Shown here: positions 27,837-44,381 of the stretch, piece after piece
How positions within the stretch are numbered: position 1 is the stretch's first letter
Layout: the number at the start of each line of letters is the position of its first letter
The notes under the pieces: model-generated
Database searches by the model: none
The model's input: only the letters and a program-made list of their open reading frames with translations
Told to the model about the DNA's origin: nothing
From: the human T2T-CHM13v2.0 reference genome, Homo sapiens
Length of the DNA stretch: 64,000 nt
Direction: 5' to 3' (one strand)
Assembly: GCF_009914755.1 (NCBI RefSeq)
Contig: NC_060944.1
Position numbers and translations under genes: made by a program

Positions 27837-27910
27837 CTGCCTGCGGCAGGAGGCGTCCGCGTAGTGTCGGTGGAGCCGCCCCCTATGCCGCCGAGCGTCG
27901 CAACTCTGCG
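27837..27910 (-). other. SYCP2: SYCP2 non-coding exon 1 (putative; TSS approximate)
   Basis: CAG|GTTGAG donor at 27837/27836, just downstream of the CCAAT pair on the minus strand. Confidence 0.55.
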
Positions 27911-28035
27911 CCTCAGGGACCGCCGCAGCGCCTCCGGCGAACGGCGGAAGGCGGGAAGCGCCCGTCCAATCCGCGCCAGGTGCGGTCGATAGTGCGTCCA
28001 ATCGGCGTCGCCGCCAGCCAGGTCCCGCCCCCCCC

Positions 28036-28125
28036 ATCCCCCCCACCCCCGCCAACGCTCGCCGGGGTCGCCCGAGGCCTGAGCCAAGGGGGACGCTGTG
28101 GGCGCGGCTCAGGCCAGGCCCTCAG
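28036..28125 (+). other. FAM217B: FAM217B distal non-coding first exon (putative; TSS approximate)
   Basis: CAG|GTTAGT donor after 28125; alternative donor TGG|GTGAGG after 28422. Confidence 0.45.
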
Positions 28126-32261: not shown

Positions 32262-32384
32262 TGCTCTGGCTATTGCTGAAAACACCTTCTAGTTCCACCT
32301 TGTAACTGGACTCCCAAAAGATGAATGCTGACATCTTCTGATGCTTAACAAGAAATAAAAATAGTCACCTTAATCATCAAAAAG
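32262..32384 (+). other. FAM217B: Putative FAM217B internal 5'UTR exon antisense to the PPP1R3D 3'UTR
   Basis: tttttcctccAG acceptor, AAG|GTAATT donor, 123 nt. Confidence 0.55.
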
Positions 32385-34203: not shown

Positions 34204-34659
34204 GGCCCCGCCGGCCGTCGGAAGATGAGGCAGGGATGAGAGACGACCTCCCGACCCCGCGACAGCTCCCTCCGTGCTCAGAAGCCGCAGAGAGTCCACC
34301 GTATCTGCAACCTGCGGGGGACCTCTCGGGCCCGGTGCGCCCTACCCTTGGTTCGCCACCTTGCTCCTCGAGTCCTTGTCCAGGTCCTCCGCTTCTTGCG
34401 GTTAAAGACATTGTAAGAGTGGGGAGTTTTTCTCTAGTGGAAGCTTTCAGAGGCCTCCCGGGAGCGCAGGGTAGCGCCTCTTTTTTCTTCTTGCTTCCTT
34501 GGAGGTTCTTACAAGAAGGCTGCGTTCCGGGAGCGGCCCCTCCCACTTTCCCGGTCCGCGGCGTTACTTACAAGGCTGCAACTTGACCGGGTGCAACTTC
34601 CTAGCGAGCCTCCGCCCCGCCCCTCGTGACGCCGCCTGCAGGCGGGCCCCCGCCGGCCT

Positions 34660-34807
34660 CAGCTCAGCCAGGGAGCTCAGCGGAGCTGCGCGCCTCCGCC
34701 TCCAGCTCCCCTGCCGCAGCGCGCCGCAGCCGGGCGTCCCCGCGCGGGCGCCGGAGAGGAAGGAAGGCTGGCAGCCTCGTCACGTGTCCGCTGCAGTCGC
34801 GAAACAG
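34660..34807 (+). other. FAM217B: FAM217B proximal first exon (TSS approximate)
   Basis: CAG|GTCTGA donor after 34807, divergent from PPP1R3D. Confidence 0.6.
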
Positions 34808-36469
34808 GTCTGATCAATTTCTGTTTACGTCTGCCTGGATTGCGCGCCTATCGATCATAGACTTTGTCTGCACAAACGGAGGACAAGGAAAATGCATGCT
34901 GCGTGTCCTTAGATTTCTGGGTTGTGGATGGGGGGAGCGGTGGTGCAAAAACCGGCCTTGCCAGGAGCTGGTCTCAGGCTAATTTTAAACATCGAGGCCA
35001 GCCCACACTTTGGACAGGTTCACTGCAACCTGGACCCTTGGTCAGACCGAGGGAGCCTCACTGCGTAGAGGAGCAGCGTCATGTCCACATCACCCAGAAT
35101 GCTTTGCCGCACCGAATGGCCAGCAGATTCCCTTGAGGGTGGGGAGGGGAGGTGCTGCTGTTGTCTTCCTGGACTCCGCGCCAGAGAGGAAGACAGGGGA
35201 ACAAGAGTTATTACCCGCTGATGACTTCTGCAGCTGCCCTTAATCAGCCTCTGGCGCTTGGGGAGCATATTTGTAGCCAGAATCTCCGACTTTTAGCTTT
35301 GTTTCCAAGCAAGCCAGAAACACCAGCAAGGCCTGGAGCTTGTTTTCTGCCTATTTAGAACCCTGCAGGCATTCGTGTCTCTCACCCGGTAGCTTTGAGC
35401 ACAAAACCCCACAGCCTTTGGTGTAAAGCATACCAGGTGAAATGAAGTAGAAAAGATGCAAGTGCACTTTCCAGAGAGCAGTTTGGGGCCAGCCATTCCA
35501 TTAAGAAGGTTCCTTTTTATTGTCCAGAGGGACAAAGCAGAAAGAAAACCAGACTAATGAAAGGGGGTTGATTCAAGAACATTCGTTGCATCTAAAATGA
35601 GTCAAGGCTGTTGATTGTGGTATAATTCATGAAATGTGAGAGAATGATTTTATTTATCATTGGATGTAAGCTAACTAAAAAGGCTTACATGATTATTGTG
35701 GGAAAAATACAGGAAAGTTTCAGGAAGAAAATAAAAATCTTCTATAATCATCTCTTTTATTTTACAGAGACAGGTGATACGGGAAAGAGAAGTATCCAAT
35801 TTCCATTCAGTGCACTTTTAATAGGCCACTCAAAATGAGAGGGGAATAACAGCAATATGTGGTATAGGTCAACAATGCTTCATAAAGAGATGATATATAA
35901 TATGTAATATGTATGAATATATGGAAAGTCTTATAATGGATTGATGTGATAGAGAAGGCCGAAAAATTGAATGGGAACGTTCCTCCTAGAGTTTAAGCTC
36001 CTTCTGAACAGGGACGTGCATAATCATTGCCATTTTTCTGGGTACTCCTGTAATTATTTGTTGCATGAATGAATGATTGGGCAATGCAATGATTGAACGC
36101 TGTAATAAGACCTGACCTTATTTAGCCTTCCAGATTTCTTCAACATATTATTTCCAAGGAAGATTATACCTGTGTGTGAACAGGGAGAGAGAGAGAGAGA
36201 TGGAATCCATTCACAGTATTTATAGTAGTGTGATCCTGTGATCCTGTCTCTAATATCTACTGTAATAAGCAGAAAAGACAAAGCTGTAAGCATAAGACAA
36301 TGTCTCCCTTCCCCAGTATTTCATAACCTAGAGTGCAAACCACTATATGATCACAGCCTTAATATTTCAATATTATACAAGTATTAAAAAACAAGTGAAA
36401 AACCAACCCGATACTGGTGGTAGGACCATTTGCAATCAATAGTTACTGACAGTATTCTGTTGCTTCTAG

Positions 36470-36581
36470 TTCCGGTGGTGAGGAGACCTTTCCAAATATA
36501 AGAGGAATAAAGAAGTCACCTCCCCAGCTGTCATCATCTTCCAGCAGATTGAGCAAGAATATTTTGAGCACTACAGGAAAG
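36470..36581 (+). other. FAM217B: FAM217B leader exon (112 nt)
   Basis: Branch-like actgac plus ttctgttgcttctAG acceptor; AAG|GTAATG donor. Confidence 0.8.
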
Positions 36582-36698
36582 GTAATGTAAACTTAGAAGA
36601 AAAATCTGACTTAGATTTATTCTGGGATTTTTGTTTGTTTGCTTGCTTGTTTCTTGTGTACATGTTCACAGTGTTTATTACTGCATCCCTGTTTTTAG

Positions 36699-36784
36699 AC
36701 AGTCCATCAAACCCGAGATGATGATCAGCCACGTGATTTTTTCAAGAAGAGGAATAGGGTGAATGAATCTCATCAGAAAAGCAG
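36699..36784 (+). other. FAM217B: FAM217B leader exon (86 nt)
   Basis: ccctgtttttAG acceptor; CAG|GTAAAT donor. Confidence 0.8.
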
Positions 36785-38215
36785 GTAAATAGTTTTAGTA
36801 TAATTGCTTTATCTTGCAAAAGACTCATTATCTCTGTTGTCCAGATTGAATATGTGGAGTGGGGAAAAAAGTATGTCTATAGATAAGAAATATACATTTA
36901 TAATTTTTTTCTAGCAGAAATGAATAGAAAAGTGGTTTAAGCATAATAGTGGATAAGGATTCCAACGGTCATAATTCTGGCAGTTGTTAGCAGAATTATA
37001 ATTTTGAGTAAGTCCTTTAATCACTTTTCTATGTTAGTTTCCTTTTATATAAAAGGATAGTGACAATAATTAATTTTTATGGATGCATACTGACAGGCAG
37101 GAACAAAATGTTTTAACAGTGTTATGAATTCTGAATAATGGAGATTCCTTCATTTCTTCATTTATTCAACATTTATTGAGCACACGTTGTACTATTGGCA
37201 ATGATTTAATGTCCTGCATATTTATTAATTAAAATGTAGCACGTATTCAAATAGTTGCTTAGGTTGTTTGAAACCACTGGGCAAATGAACCTCTGAAGTT
37301 TCCAGAAAGCATGTTTACCACCCATTTCTATTCATTCTATCTGACTTATATTACAGAGAAGTATTATTAATCTTAAATGCCACGTTCTTGGTAAATAAAT
37401 TGAAAAGAGGATATTTTCAACTCTGATGTGAGATTCAGCATCAGAATAAATTATGCCAGAGAGAATTAGTTTCTATACTCATAATGCACACAGTATTCAT
37501 TATTCCCTTTACCTGCTATTCACAAGGTAACACTAAGACCCTGTGTTTTCATTCATATGTGTTACAGGGCACCATATGATTTTATTTCTGTTCTTTAAAC
37601 ACAATTTTCCCAAATGTGTTTTCTGTTTGAAAACATTGTAACAAGCTTTTGATTTAAGGTACAGGTTTGTATGTGCAATACTTTTATATATTAAAATTTC
37701 ACTCAGCTCAGAATCGCCACCAATCAGTGATTAAACTGCAAAACTTGCATGTTTATTTGATATTTACACTTAATTTAAAATAGGTGTATAAAATAAAACT
37801 GTTTTTACTTCTGAATGTTATTAAATGCTTTTGATGGTAACAATTCCAGAGTTCTACGACTGATTTTTTCCAAACTAATGTTTTTTTTTTAAAGTACACA
37901 CGAAAGTATGAAACAAGCACTTTGAGAAATGTTAATGTTTTTCCTAAATGCTAATATTTGATATAAAATGGAAACTGTGCATTCTCTTTTGTCACATGCA
38001 TTATATAATGTATCTCAAATAGAGTATTATATGGGAAAATGTTCTGTAAAATTACTTATGCTTTAAGGAGTTTGGAAGCTGACATTTTCTAATGCCTACT
38101 AATAGCTGAGACAAAAAAAAGTACAACTAGAAGATTCTTTTTGTTTGTTTAATTATAGCCAGACCATTTTTTGTCATATGTGGTAAGAATTGCAGTTTTA
38201 TTTTCTCACAGCAAT

Positions 38216-39367
38216 ATGAATGCTGGCCCATCTTGGAATAAAGTGCAACATTCAAAGAATTCTTCAGGAAAAAGGCAGAGTAAATCCCAAGTACCCCACG
38301 CTTCTTCCCAGCCGAGAAGCAGCCTCACAGCTGTCACCCAGCCTACTGAAGAAAAACTTAAAGAAAGCATTTCCCCGGAAGCAAGACGCAAAAGGAATCC
38401 ACTCGGTTCCAGGTGTCAGGGGGCCTCAGGGAATAAACTGTTTCTTGATTTTCAGTCAATGAAAATTATTAAAGAGAATGCTGATGAGGACAGTGCAAGT
38501 GATCTCTCTGATTCGGAAAGAATTCCCATTCCTCCTTCTCCCCTCACACCTCCAGATCTCAATCTTCGAGCTGAAGAAATTGATCCAGTTTACTTTGATC
38601 TTCACCCTGGTCAGGGCCATACAAAACCTGAATACTATTATCCTAATTTCCTTCCATCCCCTTTCAGCTCCTGGGACCTACGAGATATGGCCCTGCTTCT
38701 GAACGCAGAGAACAAAACGGAAGCCGTGCCCCGAGTGGGAGGACTTCTTGGGAAGTATATCGATAGACTTATTCAGCTTGAGTGGCTGCAAGTCCAGACT
38801 GTACAGTGTGAAAAAGCAAAGGGGGGCAAAGCAAGGCCCCCCACTGCCCCTGGGACCTCAGGGGCACTGAAAAGCCCTGGGAGAAGTAAGCTAATTGCTA
38901 GTGCTCTGTCCAAGCCACTACCTCACCAGGAAGGGGCTTCAAAGTCAGGCCCTTCCCGAAAGAAAGCTTTTCACCATGAAGAAATCCACCCATCACATTA
39001 TGCATTTGAGACTTCCCCTAGACCCATTGATGTGCTTGGTGGTACCAGGTTTTGTTCTCAGAGGCAAACCCTTGAAATGAGGACAGAAGAAAAGAAAAAG
39101 AAATCAAGTAAGAGTACGAAGCTGCAGCGCTGGGATCTGTCCGGCAGTGGAAGCAGCTCTAAGGTGGAAACCAGCGGTCACATTCGAGTTCCCAAACAGG
39201 CAGCTGTGATTCTGGACTCAGCAGATTCCTGTAAGGCCTCCAAAACACAAGCACATGCACATCCTAGGAAAAAGGGAAAGGCAGAGAGCTGTGGTCATGC
39301 CACTGTATCGAGTGAGAAAAAACTGAAAACAAACGGAGTAAAGCAAAACACATATAAACTAAAATAA
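38216..39367 (+). CDS. FAM217B: Protein FAM217B (C20orf177), 383 aa; terminal exon begins at 38212
   Basis: ttttctcacAG|caatATG; MNAGPSWNKVQ...; core SDLSDSERIPIPPSPLTPPDLNLRAEEIDP, YPNFLPSPFSSWDL, KYIDRLIQLEWLQVQT recognised as FAM217-family. Confidence 0.95.
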   Translation: MNAGPSWNKVQHSKNSSGKRQSKSQVPHASSQPRSSLTAVTQPTEEKLKESISPEARRKRNPLGSRCQGASGNKLFLDFQSMKIIKENADEDSASDLSDSERIPIPPSPLTPPDLNLRAEEIDPVYFDLHPGQGHTKPEYYYPNFLPSPFSSWDLRDMALLLNAENKTEAVPRVGGLLGKYIDRLIQLEWLQVQTVQCEKAKGGKARPPTAPGTSGALKSPGRSKLIASALSKPLPHQEGASKSGPSRKKAFHHEEIHPSHYAFETSPRPIDVLGGTRFCSQRQTLEMRTEEKKKKSSKSTKLQRWDLSGSGSSSKVETSGHIRVPKQAAVILDSADSCKASKTQAHAHPRKKGKAESCGHATVSSEKKLKTNGVKQNTYKLK

Positions 39368-41375
39368 ATATCTAAAATGCTGAATTGCCAAGACCTGCAG
39401 GTACCTCAATGTTAGAGCGCTTCCAAAAGTCAAAATACTGTGAATTTTAAGGAATTTTACAAATACTGACATTTAAGTAGTTGACTGGCATTTTTGTCCA
39501 CCTTTATTTCTACCCTGAGTGGGGTTATTTTCAAAGGGAAGTGTCTTTCAATAAGCCTTTCTTTGTATTGTCAGTCTTAGGCAAATGAGAGCCCTTTAGA
39601 TAAAAATTATGTAAAATATGTGCCATATAAAGGAATAAAATGGCACCTCTCCAGGGAAAGTGTCAGTGAAACCTCAGCTACAGTAGCCGGTCTGTGTAGA
39701 GCAGCTAGTGGTGTTACCTCCCCATTTTCACATGCACGTAAGTATATGAAATAGTGCAGACTGTTTCAAATGGTGTGGAATCCTAAATGTTTAAAATAAG
39801 GTCCTTCTTGCCCACTCCCTCGCTTACTTTTTTATAAACTCCTCAAGCAAAATTTCTGTTCATTTTACCCTTAGGAGAAGCTTTAGTTCTTCCTCAAGTC
39901 AGGGAGTAGTGAGTTTGTATTTTGAGTAGTCATTTCTCACTAAGCTGGTTGCTTTCTAGAGAGACAGTGGAATCTAGTACTTTAATACATTTTCTCTGAC
40001 ATGGTTTTTTTTTTCTTTTTTGAGGGGCATTTTAAACTTAGAGGTGGTGGTAAAACCTACTTTTGAGTTCTCCGAACTGAGGTTAAAATAACTTGCAGAA
40101 TTTTCCAAAGTCAATGGGCTTAGCATGATTACTGCTGTTTGGTGGGGCTGAGAATGAAATATTTGACATTCTGGAATTGCTGGCATGTAAAGCTTCTCCA
40201 GAGAGGCACCCCAGGGAAATCACTCTTTACAATTTGTAAAGGAAGGGCCTGTAAAAGGATCAAAACACATGGACCTACATTCAGTGTAATAGTTACAAAG
40301 TTACTGATTTGGGTTCCACACCCTGTGGTCCTTAGTCAAAAATAATGATCTGTTTCAGTTTGCAAGAGCAGGATTTTATTATTTTGCTTGGGGTGAGGGG
40401 CGGGAGAGTGGAATATGAGTAAGGTTGCTGAATGAATTCTAAACTCGCTTATCTGGTCTTCAGGCTTCCCAACTCTCTCCAAGCCTTCTTATTTCACTGC
40501 AGTTAAATAACATCTTCTTGTTCCTATAGTTGTGCTGTGAGTTTTCTGTTCATATTTGCGCAGTGTATTTTAATACGGCCCATGTCATTATAGTTGATTT
40601 TATCCCTTTAAACAATTACTGTATTTGTTTTTGACGTAGAGGTTTCAATTTTTTCACCTTGGGGGCAAATGAAAAACTTGGCATTTTTCATTTGGGAACA
40701 TATAATAGCTTGTAAACTTTTCAGACAGCAGTAAATGTCTGAAAAAATATCAAAAACAGCATAAAGACAAGATTATGTAGCTCTAATTATACGTATATAA
40801 TTATAAAAAACAATGTGCAAGGGTTATATTTTAAGGTCTTTTAAAATCTGATTTTGATCATACCAAATGACATAATATTTTTTATGGTAGCCTTTTACTT
40901 TCAAGACTTAATTTTCAGACTTGTACAAGTTCCTTCTTACATTCTTTCCCTCTCACACCATCCTACTGGAGAAAGCATACTTTTATGCTAAGATCTTACT
41001 TTAAGCTTTTTATGTGAACAAAAGATGTACATATAGTAAGTATTACTTCCGTAGTCCTCAAATTTACTATAACTTTTGTACTTAGTATATGTTTTATATT
41101 TGGAAAACAGCACTACGCTTAGTTTTCCTGTAGTTCCTGAGTGATGTCTGTGTGTTCCTTGCCTGCCCTTTTTTGTGAGCACAGATTAGTCTGTTATCCA
41201 TGGCTGGCACTTCACTTATGATCCTTTCTCTGCTAGATTTTTATGCAGCTCTCTATGAAGTTTCATGGCCCATAGATATTCAAAAGCAAGATATTCTATA
41301 CATATGTGTATATGTATATATACTCCTTATGTTAATACTAAAGTGTTTATGCTGAGTTGCTGCCTTTCCCCGTCA

Positions 41376-41794
<419 letters not shown>

Positions 41795-42924
41795 AAGAAA
41801 TTGAGAAGTAACGCCTCATAATATTTGTTCCCAGCTTTTTAAATTGAAGCTGGTTGCATAATCTGGGGAATAGTCATAATTTCATGTGTTATACAGTTTA
41901 AAAAGCCTGCAAAAGTGACTTTGCTTGTTTACTTTCTGCCTCAGATTGACTATTTTAACCAATATTGTCACGACTAGATCATAGCTCCTAGTGAATAACA
42001 TGAGGTGTTTTAAAGTTAGGTCTATTACAGAATTAACATAAGCACAATTTTAATTTTATGATATCTGATATGCCTATCTAATACATCTTAATGCATTAAA
42101 TGCTGCAGATAAGAATCTTGCTATTTTTCAAGTAGACAACATTAGAAAGTTGAATCATGAACTCATTCAATTCATCAAGTCAAAAGCACTGAGTGTTTTG
42201 CTAGTCTAGTGACATGGGTTATTGTATTTCCGAGAAGTGCCTCTCATTTCTGGGGAGTTGTTTACATATACCCTGCATTTAAACCAATTAAAACAATCCA
42301 AGTTTCTTTAAAAAAAAAAAAAAAAAGAAAAAGAAAAAGAAAAATATTTTAGGCTTAGAATTATCTAATGGAAAAAATGTAAAAAAGTACAAAAATGAAC
42401 TAAAAGTATATCAGTATTTGCAGTATTTGCTGTGATTACTTAGGTTTAGACTTTCTCAACTTCTTAGATGACTAAATGGGCTGAAGACTTGTAACTAACT
42501 TGAATAGGATAGACTTCATACCCTGTGACAAAAAGGATGGGGAAGAGAATATCATTGGTCTTGCCATATACCTCCTAGCTAAAAGGAAAATGGTTTGTAG
42601 TTGTTCTTGGGCCTACTGTGTTGCTTTTCAGAAGGACATAAGACTTTCTACTTTATCTGATATGGATATCGTCTACTTCCTCATTCCTTTATGCTCACTT
42701 ATGGAGTAGTTACATAGAAATATAACTCTTGGTGGTACTGTATTTTAAGGTAATTCAGAAGCAGTATGTATTATTTATGTACATGTACAGGACACCATTC
42801 AAAATGGCTTGAAAATATTCAGCATGTTTGTTATTTGCTGTTATATTGTATGTTTAGTTTTGTATGTGATAAACAGAATTGATGTAAGTTTTTGTGGACT
42901 TGAATTTCTCCTTCCTTGAGATCA

Positions 42925-42930
42925 ATTAAA
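42925..42930 (+). terminator. FAM217B: Candidate distal FAM217B poly(A) signal ATTAAA
   Basis: Followed by a GU/U-rich element at ~42945-42985. Confidence 0.5.
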
Positions 42931-44381
42931 CAGCAGAAAAATATTGTCTGGATTTTTCTGGTATTGTTTTGTTTTGCTTTTCATGCAGTTCTCTTCTGAA
43001 GCTTGCCTTTATTTTCTCCCTGGTTATTTAAAGGAATTGCCCAGGATGAAATGCTGTTACAACTCCTGTCTTAACACTAAGCGACATGGGTGGCCAAAGC
43101 ACAGGTTAACATTACCGGATATATCAGAGAAGCATTGCAGTACATTTCTTGAGTCGCTCTTCCACTTACTACTCCATGTTGAGGATTAATTAGGGTAGCA
43201 GGATGCAAATTCAGTAAGCATAAATTAAGGTAACCTGTGATGTAATGAACTTGCACCTTTATGTACATATCCGGAAACGAGTACCATCTCTTTCAAGGAA
43301 GTGGCCTGGTTAGGAGATAGCAGTTTTGAGCAGCTCCAGCTGCAAACATTCTCAAAAGCCCTTTGCTCTTCTTTCTAACTTCACTCTGACAATAGGGTGC
43401 ATTCTTTTGAGTCTACCAAATTGTGGCAGTAATGTTCAGTGGCTTAAAAAGTAAGTTTTTGGATATGTTTTGAAAATTAACCACGCTGGAGGTTTAAAAT
43501 CTTTTTTTTTTTTTTTTTTGTACAGGAAATGTATTATTTTGGGCTGTTGCTGTTTTATTATCCACAAGGTGGCGACCAAACCCTTTCAGATAGCAGTGAA
43601 TTTGGCCTGTGAGTACCTTCTAGTCAAATAAAAAGGTTTTTACTGGAATCAAAAAGAAATGGAGAGAAAAAGACTTTTTGACTTCAGGCCCAAAGCATGT
43701 TCTTTATTTAACTTCACTCTGCCATCAGAGAATACAGTGGTTTATCATATGCAGTTAGGTGCTGTGGAGGATTCTCTTTGATTCATTGAACAGTCTCACA
43801 TCATAAAACACTGTATCCAGCATAGAATCGTCCTCAATGAAGTAACATAAATCATCAATTTATAAAAATCTTCACAGAGATCCCTGTTTCATAAAATGCA
43901 ATTTGAATATTTTTGTCTTCAGCAATTTAATGTATAAGGAATTACTGTAATAATACTGGAAAATATATATGGAATTAAAAATGGAATAGTCATAAATAAT
44001 TGCCCTAGCTTAAATGAGATTTTAGAGCAAACAAATAACACATATTTAACTTTAGATTACATTAAGCGAGGACAATTTCATGTGAGCTCCTCCCTAGACC
44101 TACTGAGTCAAAGTCTGCATTTTAACAAAATCCTTGGCACATTAAAGTTTGAGAAATCTGCTTTCCTGGTACTTAAGTCTGCAAGTTTGAGTGACTACCT
44201 TTATGGTGGGTGAGTAGCTGGTAGGCCCTCTCCCCCTCAAGCAAGCCATTTGCTTATCTAGCCCTATTTTCTCCGTAGTTTAAAGGCACTGGGCTGGCTG
44301 CTTACCTAACAGGTTGCCTAAATGAATGATTCACGGCCTCTGATAAAATCTGCTCCACAAGTGAATGCTAAGGAGTTGAAG

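What the first reader, a model, noticed from the sequence alone, without database searches (positions are those of the whole stretch)
36718..38219. Chain of coupled uORFs ending on the FAM217B start codon (TGA-ATG, then ATGA overlap)
Seen: uORF1 36718-36762 (MMISHVIFSRRGIG*, gagATG) ends TGA immediately followed by the ATG at 36763 of uORF2 (MNLIRKAAI*). uORF2 crosses the splice junction, and its TGA (38217-19) overlaps the main ATG (38216-18) as ATGA. Inference: scanning ribosomes should largely be captured before the annotated AUG, so FAM217B output may rely on termination-reinitiation, leaky scanning, or the upstream non-AUG start that bypasses these uORFs. Together with the open leader this looks like a coherent translational control module.
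Basis: partly seen in the sequence, partly recalled or inferred. Interest (0 to 1): 0.7.

Follow-up and report, generated by a model that had tools for sequence, protein, structure and literature searches.

The report
Out-of-frame AUGs inside FAM217B's old coding leader
The two short upstream reading frames before the human FAM217B start codon are real, but they sit in exons that code for protein in other vertebrates, and their neat arrangement follows from those codons rather than from a purpose-built control device.

Summary
In the spliced NM_022106.3 leader (349 nt) the only three AUGs are 36718, 36721 and 36763. They share one frame (+1 relative to the CDS) and form a 14-codon and a 9-codon ORF split by one UGA. 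The second stop overlaps the annotated AUG as AUGA.

That frame is open through the whole leader. Its translation aligns without frameshift to the roughly 100-aa N-terminal extension of lemur, elephant, carnivore, bat, marsupial and crocodilian FAM217B, and is as conserved as the annotated CDS.

The ancestral AUG exon survives in human intron 1 only as a wreck with two stops. FAM217B was already listed in 2011 (Ivanov et al.) among human genes with a predicted conserved non-AUG N-terminal extension.

The uORF geometry follows from the frame-0 codons Asp-Asp-Asp, Val-Asn-Glu and Met-Asn-Ala. Synonymous recoding recreates the whole chain in 19–43% of samples, against 0.36% of shuffles.

Most likely the AUGs are by-products that still trap scanning ribosomes and depress the 383-aa form. 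Selection on them is untested. This is a new member of a known kind, of modest interest.

The parts
34661..34807 (+). Exon 1, the GC-rich first leader exon. The CDS frame is open through it and it holds no ATG.
   Evidence: frame-0 translation; 75% GC, MFE -65.9 kcal/mol for 147 nt; the next in-frame stop in genomic DNA is TAG 34602, upstream of the annotated TSS.
35442..35566 (+). Decayed relic of the ancestral first coding exon, now in intron 1. ATG 35442 is followed by TAG 35448-50 and TAA 35502-04. A GT that could serve as donor lies at 35567-68.
   Evidence: tblastn matches to Gavialis (E 0.015), Monodelphis (E 0.13) and Erethizon (E 4e-4) N-termini; the sequence itself; the Pteropus P0118 model starts with M in the homologous exon and joins it to exon 2.
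36470..36581 (+). Exon 2, annotated as 5'UTR. In the CDS frame it encodes a conserved segment (..SGGEETFPNIRGIKKSPPQLSSSSSRLSKNILSTTGK).
   Evidence: 51-86% identity to 19 mammalian long forms, with at most a one-residue gap inside the exon-2 segment.
36498..36500 (+). [quoted passage not shown] Probably the non-AUG start proposed by Ivanov 2011. This rests on my reading of an index column.
   Evidence: nte_find is 175 for the MANE transcript and 241 for ENST00000358293; index 175 is ATA 36498, in frame. The value 241 fits 90+123+28 nt of the alternative leader.
36699..36784 (+). Exon 3, annotated as 5'UTR. In the CDS frame it encodes TVHQTRDDDQPRDFFKKRNRVNESHQKS, which is conserved and shares DFFK.RN with the paralogue FAM217A.
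   Evidence: 3 of 2000 shuffles reach the FAM217A alignment score, and the other two frames score below the shuffle mean; the region is single-copy in the genome.
36718..36762 (+). uORF1 with tandem AUGs at 36718 and 36721, 14 codons, stop TGA 36760-62, +1 frame. The AUGs lie inside the frame-0 codons GAT GAT GAT (Asp-Asp-Asp).
36737..36742 (+). Run of six T. The horse and guinea pig gene models behave as if they had one more T here, which puts the uORF1 AUGs in frame with the CDS.
   Evidence: sequence. P0009 MMVSHVIFFKKG.. and P0021 MMINHVIFFKKR...
36759..36761 (+). In-frame GTG (Val), 10 codons upstream of Met1. 19 of 120 orthologue models start about here, with M at or within a codon of this position (rodents, marmoset, pangolin, a bat), and M is also present internally in marsupials.
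36763..36784 (+). uORF2, first part (ATG 36763, weak context with T at -3). The ATG lies inside the frame-0 codons AAT GAA (Asn-Glu).
38212..38219 (+). uORF2, second part. It ends at TGA 38217-19, which overlaps the annotated ATG 38216-18.
38216..39367 (+). Annotated FAM217B CDS (383 aa). Pfam FAM217 covers residues 95-327.
   Evidence: PF15344, E 3e-105.
38220..38462 (+). Third link of the +1-frame chain. ATG 38220 directly follows the uORF2 stop and opens an 80-codon overlapping ORF. Its TGA overlaps in-frame Met82 (ATG 38459) as ATGA.

Best explanation
Human FAM217B exons 2 and 3 are annotated as 5'UTR. They are in fact the conserved coding exons for an N-terminal segment of vertebrate FAM217B. 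Humans have lost the ancestral AUG-bearing first coding exon, which survives as a stop-ridden relic in intron 1.

The three uAUGs and their stops are by-products of frame-0 codons read one base later. GAT GAT GAT (Asp-Asp-Asp) gives ATGATG. GTG AAT GAA (Val-Asn-Glu) gives TGA-ATG. ATG AAT GCT (Met-Asn-Ala) gives ATGA followed by another ATG.

Inferred from scanning rules, not shown here:
- A minority of 43S complexes start at an in-frame near-cognate codon in exon 2. The published proposal appears to be AUA 36498. These ribosomes read through exon 3 as elongating ribosomes, ignore the uAUGs and make a long form of about 441 aa.
- The rest reach AUG 36718/36721 (purine at -3) and mostly translate uORF1.
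- After its stop there are 0 nt to AUG3 and 26 nt to the annotated AUG, which is too short for efficient reinitiation. The 383-aa form therefore comes mainly from leaky scanning.

The uAUGs thus act as a constitutive sink that lowers the short form and raises the relative weight of the long form. There is no evidence that their geometry was selected.
For: Shown:
- The three AUGs share one frame, and the CDS frame is open through the 349-nt leader with no ATG. The frame is open in 3.5% of dinucleotide shuffles of exons 2+3, while the two other frames carry 5 and 6 stops.
- Of 120 orthologue representatives, 23 carry exon 2+3 homologues and 5 carry the exon 3 homologue in the CDS frame. Gavialis and a bird add two more that the count missed.
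- Human frame-0 identity to the 19 mammalian long forms is 51-86% in exon 2 and 55-90% in exon 3. It is 40-74% in CDS residues 1-94 and 51-82% in the Pfam domain.
- Human-only versus lemur-only changes are 4 versus 6 in the extension (60 columns) and 23 versus 23 in the CDS (259 columns).
- The relic first exon has two stops.
- Recoding recreates the chain in 19%/43% of samples, against 0.36% of shuffles.
- The residue at human Met1 is not M in 28 of 102 anchored orthologues, so that AUG is not the universal start.

Literature:
- FAM217B NM_022106.3 is in the sheet 'Ivanov et al un_28' of Fedorova 2022 (supplement read).
- It also appears in the sheet RiboSET_ext_HPA by position, near part 5, between sheet 3 at part 2 and sheet 4 at part 16.
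Against: - No ribosome-profiling or reporter data on these uAUGs were available, so their capture of ribosomes is inferred.
- FAM217B is absent from PhyloSET and RiboSET (file 5 has no occurrence), from the addendum's list and from the proteomics-based list of translated 5'UTRs. Current translation of the extension in humans therefore rests on the relaxed Ribo-seq set and on conservation.
- AUA is a weak start.
- The uAUGs are present in horse, guinea pig, gorilla and degu models. That could reflect selection on them. I cannot separate this from frame-0 constraint without DNA alignments.
- The orthologue proteins are mostly automatic gene models.
- The relative-rate test has low power.
Confidence: 0.55

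Rival explanations
1. The chain is a selected translational control module: coupled short uORFs hand ribosomes on by termination-reinitiation (TGA-ATG, then ATGA) and tune FAM217B output, perhaps with eIF2-alpha phosphorylation.
For: The geometry is real and rare for random RNA (0.36% of shuffles). Both ORFs are short (14 and 9 codons), a length that by established knowledge permits resumed scanning. The uAUGs exist in several distant mammals, as seen through gene models that start at them (P0009, P0021, P0001, P0037).
Against: The same geometry appears in 19-43% of synonymous recodings of the conserved peptide. Spacings of 0 nt and of 2 nt forward from the P site give no time to regain a ternary complex. 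There is no UGGGA motif. The pattern simply repeats wherever frame 0 reads xTG-AAT/AAA, for example at Met82. In species with an upstream in-frame AUG the ORFs are internal. No paper in the searched library links FAM217B to uORFs or ribosome profiling.
Confidence: 0.12
2. The leader exons are a dead relic in humans and the extension is no longer translated. The annotated AUG is the only productive start, and the uAUGs are neutral leftovers that merely lower output.
For: RefSeq and GENCODE keep the AUG at 38216 (hub table; tags). FAM217B is absent from PhyloSET, its addendum and the peptide-based list. The ancestral AUG exon is destroyed. The only candidate starts are weak near-cognates.
Against: No stop or frameshift occurs in 116 codons, and exons 2+3 are AT-rich (3.5% of shuffles stay open). 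Human-lineage change is no faster than in the CDS. The frame stays open in all three leader variants for at least 71 codons. FAM217B is a member of RiboSET_ext.
Confidence: 0.25
3. An AUG-initiated long form exists in humans through an unannotated upstream exon, a shift of frame on the T6 run from the uORF1 AUGs, or the alternative acceptor 16 nt upstream of exon 4 that puts the uORF2 AUG in frame.
For: Horse and guinea pig models fuse the uORF1 AUGs to the CDS frame. Gorilla and degu models fuse the uORF2 AUG through the upstream acceptor. Human DNA has the same bases at that acceptor.
Against: The three RefSeq transcripts in the hub table have no such exon or acceptor. The T6 run in the uORF1 frame does not fit the standard slippery heptamer (my reading), and no strong downstream structure appears in the fold. 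tblastn at E<=5 found no intact human counterpart of any orthologue's first coding exon.
Confidence: 0.05

Closest known systems
[quoted passage not shown] 2011, PMC3105428, passages and section 12 read)
   Same: The frame is open and conserved upstream of the annotated AUG with no in-frame AUG. [quoted passage not shown] FAM217B itself is on the list, as shown by Fedorova 2022 Supplementary Data 3.
   Different: The FAM217B case is not discussed by name in the text I could read; Table 1 and the supplement of Ivanov 2011 were not readable. Here the extension was AUG-initiated in the ancestor and still is in marsupials, sauropsids and a bat. The human state is therefore a secondary loss of the AUG exon.
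ATF4/GCN4-type delayed reinitiation (established knowledge, recalled)
   Same: Two uORFs in series, the second touching the main ORF.
   Different: ATF4 needs a spacer of tens of nucleotides between uORF1 and uORF2, and a long uORF2 that overlaps the CDS out of frame. Here the spacer is 0 nt and the overlap is 4 nt.
Termination-reinitiation at overlapping stop-start signals (calicivirus TURBS, influenza B M1/BM2; recalled)
   Same: A stop and a start share bases (AUGA).
   Different: Those systems follow long ORFs and need an upstream 18S-complementary motif. No UGGGA is present here, and the upstream ORF has 9 codons.
Start-codon turnover among orthologues
   Same: Different lineages use different starts for one conserved ORF.
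   Different: Here at least five solutions are seen in gene models: the ancestral exon AUG, an AUG about 10 codons upstream (at or near human GTG 36759), the uORF1 AUGs through an extra T, the uORF2 AUG through another acceptor, and Met1. All are models, not proteins seen at the bench.

Membership tests
Upstream ORF (uORF) of an annotated mRNA | An AUG in the mature 5' leader with an in-frame stop before or just inside the main ORF | tested here: met
   three AUGs forming two ORFs of 14 and 9 codons.
Upstream ORF (uORF) of an annotated mRNA | Ribosome occupancy or an initiation peak at the uAUG | not testable with these tools
   No Ribo-seq data were held. Sandmann 2023 supplements have no FAM217B entry, but as I recall that catalogue starts from ORFs of 16 aa or more, plus 221 smaller ones.
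Upstream ORF (uORF) of an annotated mRNA | Conservation of the uAUG beyond what overlapping constraints explain | tested here: inconclusive
   The uAUGs are implied in horse, guinea pig, gorilla and degu models. They lie in conserved frame-0 codons, and no mammalian DNA was available.
[quoted passage not shown] | CDS frame open upstream of the annotated AUG with no in-frame AUG | tested here: met
   116 codons; also open in the other two leader variants.
[quoted passage not shown] | Amino-acid conservation of the extension across species | tested here: met
[quoted passage not shown] | An upstream in-frame stop that excludes a further upstream AUG | tested here: met
   a stop 72 codons upstream in the leader with exon 32262-32384. 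For the exon-1 leader the only stop is genomic TAG 34602, outside the annotated transcript.
[quoted passage not shown] | A conserved near-cognate start in good context, with translation evidence | tested here: inconclusive
   Candidates are listed (ATA 36498, A at -3). Codon conservation was not testable. FAM217B is a member of RiboSET_ext only and is absent from PhyloSET, RiboSET and the addendum.
ATF4-type delayed reinitiation module | A spacer between uORF1 and uORF2 long enough for regulated reacquisition of the ternary complex, and a uORF2 that overlaps the CDS substantially | tested here: not met
   spacer 0 nt, overlap 4 nt.
TURBS-dependent termination-reinitiation | The 18S-complementary UGGGA motif upstream of the stop-start site (motif recalled) | tested here: not met
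   no TGGGA in exon 2, exon 3 or the first 49 nt of exon 4.
Programmed -1 frameshift from uORF1 into the CDS frame | An X XXY YYZ slippery heptamer in the uORF frame, plus a downstream structure | tested here: not met
   in the uORF1 frame the run reads ATT TTT TCA, which does not fit the pattern; only weak pairing lies downstream.

The most novel reading that the evidence does not exclude
The human FAM217B start is mis-annotated. The main physiological product would be a form of about 441 aa started at a non-AUG codon in exon 2. After the ancestral AUG exon was lost, the run of out-of-frame AUGs was retained as a trap that keeps scanning ribosomes off Met1. That run comprises tandem AUGAUG, AUG 36763 and AUG 38220, each ORF ending on or next to an in-frame AUG. 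FAM217B would then be a near-exclusive non-AUG gene. A bolder variant is that some ribosomes starting at the uORF1 AUGs slip on the T6 run into the CDS frame, copying at the RNA level what horse and guinea pig appear to have fixed in DNA.
Probability: 0.15. Interest if true: 0.55.

Novelty: new member of a known kind. Interest (0 to 1): 0.3.

Why it matters
It corrects how this leader should be read. Variants in exons 2-3 of FAM217B may be missense or frameshift changes of a real proteoform rather than UTR variants.

Any uORF scoring of this gene must allow for the overlapping coding frame.

It is also a clean worked example of a general trap for sequence-only uORF hunting. Tidy stop-start junctions arise automatically wherever a coding frame reads xTG-AAT-Gxx, so geometry alone is weak evidence of design.

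The lineage-specific starts seen in gene models make FAM217B a usable case for studying how a gene copes with loss of its AUG exon.

FAM217B itself is of unknown function, which limits the immediate impact.

Tried and rejected
- Repeat-derived exon: rejected. The region 36600-36900 has one match in the whole assembly.
- Pfam on single leader exons: no hit for any of the three leader-exon translations (28, 37 and 48 aa). This is uninformative because the FAM217 model starts at residue 95.
- Human AUG exon for the long form: tblastn of 17 orthologue N-termini (150 aa each, E<=5) found only the stop-ridden relic at 35442-35566 and a stop-containing stretch just upstream of exon 2. Very short first exons, such as the 8-15 aa ones of lemur, koala and the bird, would escape this search.
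- Alternative 5' exons 28051-28125 and 32262-32384: neither supplies an in-frame AUG. The second adds three more short uORFs and in-frame stops.
- Transcript with exon 38668-42952: uORF2 would become 18 codons, and the next long ORF starts at Met158.
- Literature: FAM217B alone gave 62 papers, of which I saw 30 listed, none on translation. C20orf177 gave 9, none relevant. FAM217B+uORF gave 0, and FAM217B+ribosome profiling gave 0.
- Supplements without FAM217B: Sandmann 2023, Rodriguez/Tress 2024 and the Fedorova addendum.
- Ivanov 2011 supplement: could not be searched, and its Table 1 is not held as text.
- Fedorova Supplementary Data 2 (the RiboSET_ext list with start codon and rank) is too large to read.
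- No mammalian genomic DNA was available, so codon-level conservation of the uAUGs and dN/dS were not computed.
- No structure or complex prediction was run because none bore on the question.
Full report
**1. Observation**

I read the window at the stated places and built the NM_022106.3 leader from the annotated exons. All four exons have canonical AG/GT borders. The leader is 349 nt long and holds exactly three ATGs: 36718, 36721 and 36763.

- ATG 36718 (cccgagATGa) and ATG 36721 (gagatgATGa) open MMISHVIFSRRGIG, which stops at TGA 36760-62.
- ATG 36763 (gggtgaATGa, T at -3) follows immediately. It gives MNLIRKAAI across the 36784|38212 junction and stops at TGA 38217-19.
- That stop overlaps the annotated ATG 38216-18 (agcaatATGa).

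All three AUGs are in one frame, +1 relative to the CDS.

The base after TGA 38217-19 starts another ATG (38220), which opens an 80-codon +1 ORF. Its TGA 38460-62 again overlaps an in-frame ATG (Met82, 38459) as ATGA.

**2. What the leader really is**

The same script showed that the CDS frame is open through all 349 nt of the leader (116 codons) with no in-frame ATG.

A search with the 383-aa protein returned 303 relatives, of which 120 were listed. Many orthologues are about 100 aa longer at the N-terminus. tblastn of 17 such N-termini against the window and a MAFFT alignment gave three results:
- Human exon 2 (36470-36581) and exon 3 (36699-36784), read in the CDS frame, align without frameshift to the coding N-terminal extension of lemur, elephant, marmot, naked mole-rat, hare, bats, mole, tenrec, cat, seal, mustelid, fox, opossum and koala. 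They align more weakly to gharial and a bird.
- Identity to the 19 mammalian long forms is 51-86% for exon 2 and 55-90% for exon 3. It is 40-74% for CDS residues 1-94 and 51-82% for the Pfam domain.
- The "UTR" exons are thus at least as conserved as the annotated protein.

Classifying the 120 listed representatives gave these counts:

| Class | Count |
|---|---|
| Exon 2+3 homologues in frame | 23 |
| Exon 3 homologue only | 5 |
| Start about 10 codons upstream, at or near human GTG 36759 | 19 |
| Start at the human-type Met1 | 36 |
| Start at the uORF1 AUGs | 2 |
| Start at the uORF2 AUG | 2 |
| Other N-termini, mostly intron-derived | 15 |
| Could not be anchored | 18 |

The unanchored group includes gharial and the bird, whose long extension is visible. 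Among the 102 anchored proteins, the residue at human Met1 is M in 74 and I, V, T, L, S, K or G in 28.

Further support:
- Exon 3 shares DFFK.RN with the CDS frame of the paralogue FAM217A on contig C6. Only 3 of 2000 shuffles of the exon-3 peptide reach that score, and the other two frames of exon 3 score below the shuffle mean.
- The frame-0 openness of exons 2+3 is reached by 3.5% of dinucleotide shuffles. The other two frames have 5 and 6 stops.
- The region 36600-36900 is single-copy in the assembly.

**3. Where the ancestral start went**

Marsupial and gharial proteins begin in a shared first coding exon. Its human counterpart lies in intron 1 at about 35442-35566:
- ATG 35442 is followed two codons later by TAG 35448-50.
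- A second stop, TAA, lies at 35502-04.
- After that the frame is open to a GT at 35567-68, but without an ATG.

A fruit-bat model (P0118) still starts with M in this exon and joins it to exon 2. Seal-type starts just upstream of exon 2 carry stops in human. The alternative human 5' exons 28051-28125 and 32262-32384 supply no in-frame AUG. The second adds three short uORFs and an in-frame stop 72 codons upstream of Met1. Humans therefore have the conserved coding exons but no AUG for them in any annotated transcript.

**4. This part is already in print**

Fedorova et al. 2022 (PMC9789052; supplement file 6 read) list FAM217B NM_022106.3 among 28 genes whose non-AUG N-terminal extension was predicted by Ivanov et al. 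2011 and is not annotated in GENCODE v35.
- The column nte_find gives 175 for the MANE transcript. Index 175 of my spliced leader is the in-frame ATA 36498, 58 codons upstream.
- The value 241 for the other transcript fits 90+123+28 nt. Reading this column as the start of the extension is my inference.
- FAM217B is not in PhyloSET or RiboSET (file 5 has no occurrence), nor in the addendum.
- It does occur in supplement file 9 near part 5. That lies between the header of sheet 3, RiboSET_ext_HPA (part 2), and sheet 4 (part 16). It is therefore in the relaxed Ribo-seq set.
- The proteomics-based list of translated 5'UTRs has no FAM217B entry.

[quoted passage not shown] It argues that these can make the downstream AUG unavailable. 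Its Table 1 and supplement were not readable here.

No paper in the searched library names FAM217B or C20orf177 together with uORFs or ribosome profiling.

**5. Is the chain designed?**

Each feature maps onto frame-0 codons:
- ATGATG lies in GAT GAT GAT (Asp-Asp-Asp).
- TGA-ATG lies in GTG AAT GAA (Val-Asn-Glu).
- ATGA-ATG lies in ATG AAT GCT (Met-Asn-Ala).
- The later ATGA lies in ATG AAA (Met82-Lys).

I kept the frame-0 peptide of exon 3 and the start of exon 4 and redrew synonymous codons 20000 times. Results, compared with dinucleotide shuffles of exon 3:

| Null model | Full chain | Three or more uAUGs |
|---|---|---|
| Synonymous recoding, uniform codons | 19% | 12% |
| Synonymous recoding, FAM217B codon usage | 43% | 40% |
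| Dinucleotide shuffles of exon 3 | 0.36% | 48% |

The apparent coherence is therefore explained by the coding sequence. It is neither enriched nor depleted relative to that null.

Gene models that begin at the uAUGs show that the AUGs exist in distant mammals. These are horse and guinea pig, which fuse the uORF1 AUGs to the CDS frame as if the T6 run 36737-42 had one more T, and gorilla and degu, which use the uORF2 AUG through an acceptor 16 nt upstream of 38212. This cannot be separated from frame-0 constraint without DNA alignments, and none were available.

**6. Mechanism**

This section is inferred from the scanning model, not measured.
- Exon 1 is 75% GC and strongly structured (-65.9 kcal/mol over 147 nt).
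- In-frame near-cognates are listed: CTG 34686, ACG 34782, ATA 36498 and 36507, TTG 36549, GTG 36759 and others.
- Ribosomes that start at one of these read through exon 3 in frame 0 and ignore the uAUGs.
- The rest meet AUG 36718 (G at -3) and AUG 36721 (A at -3), and mostly translate uORF1.
- After its stop there are 0 nt to AUG3, 26 nt to Met1 and 30 nt to AUG 38220. These distances are short for regaining a ternary complex.
- Resumed scanners are therefore more likely to reach Met82 (270 nt on) or Met158.
- AUG3 has a poor context. At the uORF2 stop the P site sits on ATA 38214-16, two bases before Met1.
- There is no UGGGA motif (motif recalled).
- The uORF1 stop lies 22 nt before the last exon junction and the uORF2 stop lies in the last exon. 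By the 50-55-nt rule (recalled), neither should trigger junction-dependent decay.

Net expectation: the AUGs act as a constitutive sink that lowers the 383-aa form and raises the relative share of any non-AUG long form. This is the logic Ivanov et al. describe for EIF4G2, R3HCC1 and ENOX2.

**7. Constraint on the human branch**

I used 15 non-primate long forms as the outgroup consensus.
- The extension has 4 human-only and 6 lemur-only changes in 60 informative columns.
- The CDS has 23 and 23 in 259 columns.

There is no sign of relaxed constraint in humans, but the test has low power.

**8. Verdict**

The thing itself is a set of out-of-frame AUGs embedded in a conserved, formerly AUG-initiated and possibly still translated, N-terminal coding region. 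The extension is already in the literature. The uAUG chain is not named there, but it belongs to a described kind.

- Interest: 0.3.
- Open points: whether the uAUGs are occupied, whether the extension is made in human cells, and whether the AUG-creating synonymous sites are under extra selection. The unreadable supplements (Ivanov Table 1 and dataset, Fedorova Supplementary Data 2) may already answer the start codon and Ribo-seq rank.

Noticed in passing
window 38220-38462: The +1-frame chain continues into the CDS. ATG 38220 directly follows the uORF2 stop and opens an 80-codon overlapping ORF. Its TGA overlaps in-frame Met82 (ATG 38459) as ATGA.
   Followed up: partly
window 35442-35568: Wreck of the ancestral first coding exon of FAM217B in intron 1. 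ATG 35442 is followed by TAG 35448-50 and TAA 35502-04, and a GT lies at 35567-68. The exon is intact in marsupial, gharial and fruit-bat models.
   Followed up: yes
window 36737-36742: Horse (P0009) and guinea pig (P0021) models start at the uORF1 AUGs and continue in the CDS frame. This implies one extra T in this T6 run in two separate lineages. It could also be a homopolymer error or a model artefact.
   Followed up: partly
window 38196-38215: An AG 16 nt upstream of the exon 4 acceptor would put the uORF2 AUG in frame and give a 397-aa form. This is modelled in gorilla (P0001, a cluster of 71 sequences), and in degu (P0037) through an acceptor further upstream. The human bases are the same, and the pyrimidine tract is poor.
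   Followed up: partly
window 36759-36761: Human in-frame GTG lies where the marmoset model and marsupial long forms have M; 19 of 120 orthologue models (many rodents, pangolin, a bat) start at or within a codon of it. In murids, squirrels, hare and others the human Met1 position is not M (28 of 102 anchored).
   Followed up: partly
window 32321-32330 and 38216-38225: The 10-mer at the main start, ATGAATGCTG, occurs only once more in the window, inside the alternative 5' exon 32262-32384, where it also begins a short ORF. 3 of 100 shuffles give two or more matches, so this may be chance.
   Followed up: partly
window 34577-34661 and 27909-28051: Both FAM217B first exons sit back to back with the first exon of a minus-strand gene: PPP1R3D (TSS 34577) and SYCP2 (TSS 27909). 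This suggests two bidirectional promoters. It comes from the hub table only and was not examined.
   Followed up: no
L003 (G000:C6:3937071-3940439), minus strand: The paralogue FAM217A has a 408-codon open frame in one exon. It contains both the FAM217 domain match and, 66 codons upstream, DFFKNRN, which matches FAM217B exon 3. There is no intron where FAM217B has its exon 3/4 junction.
   Followed up: partly
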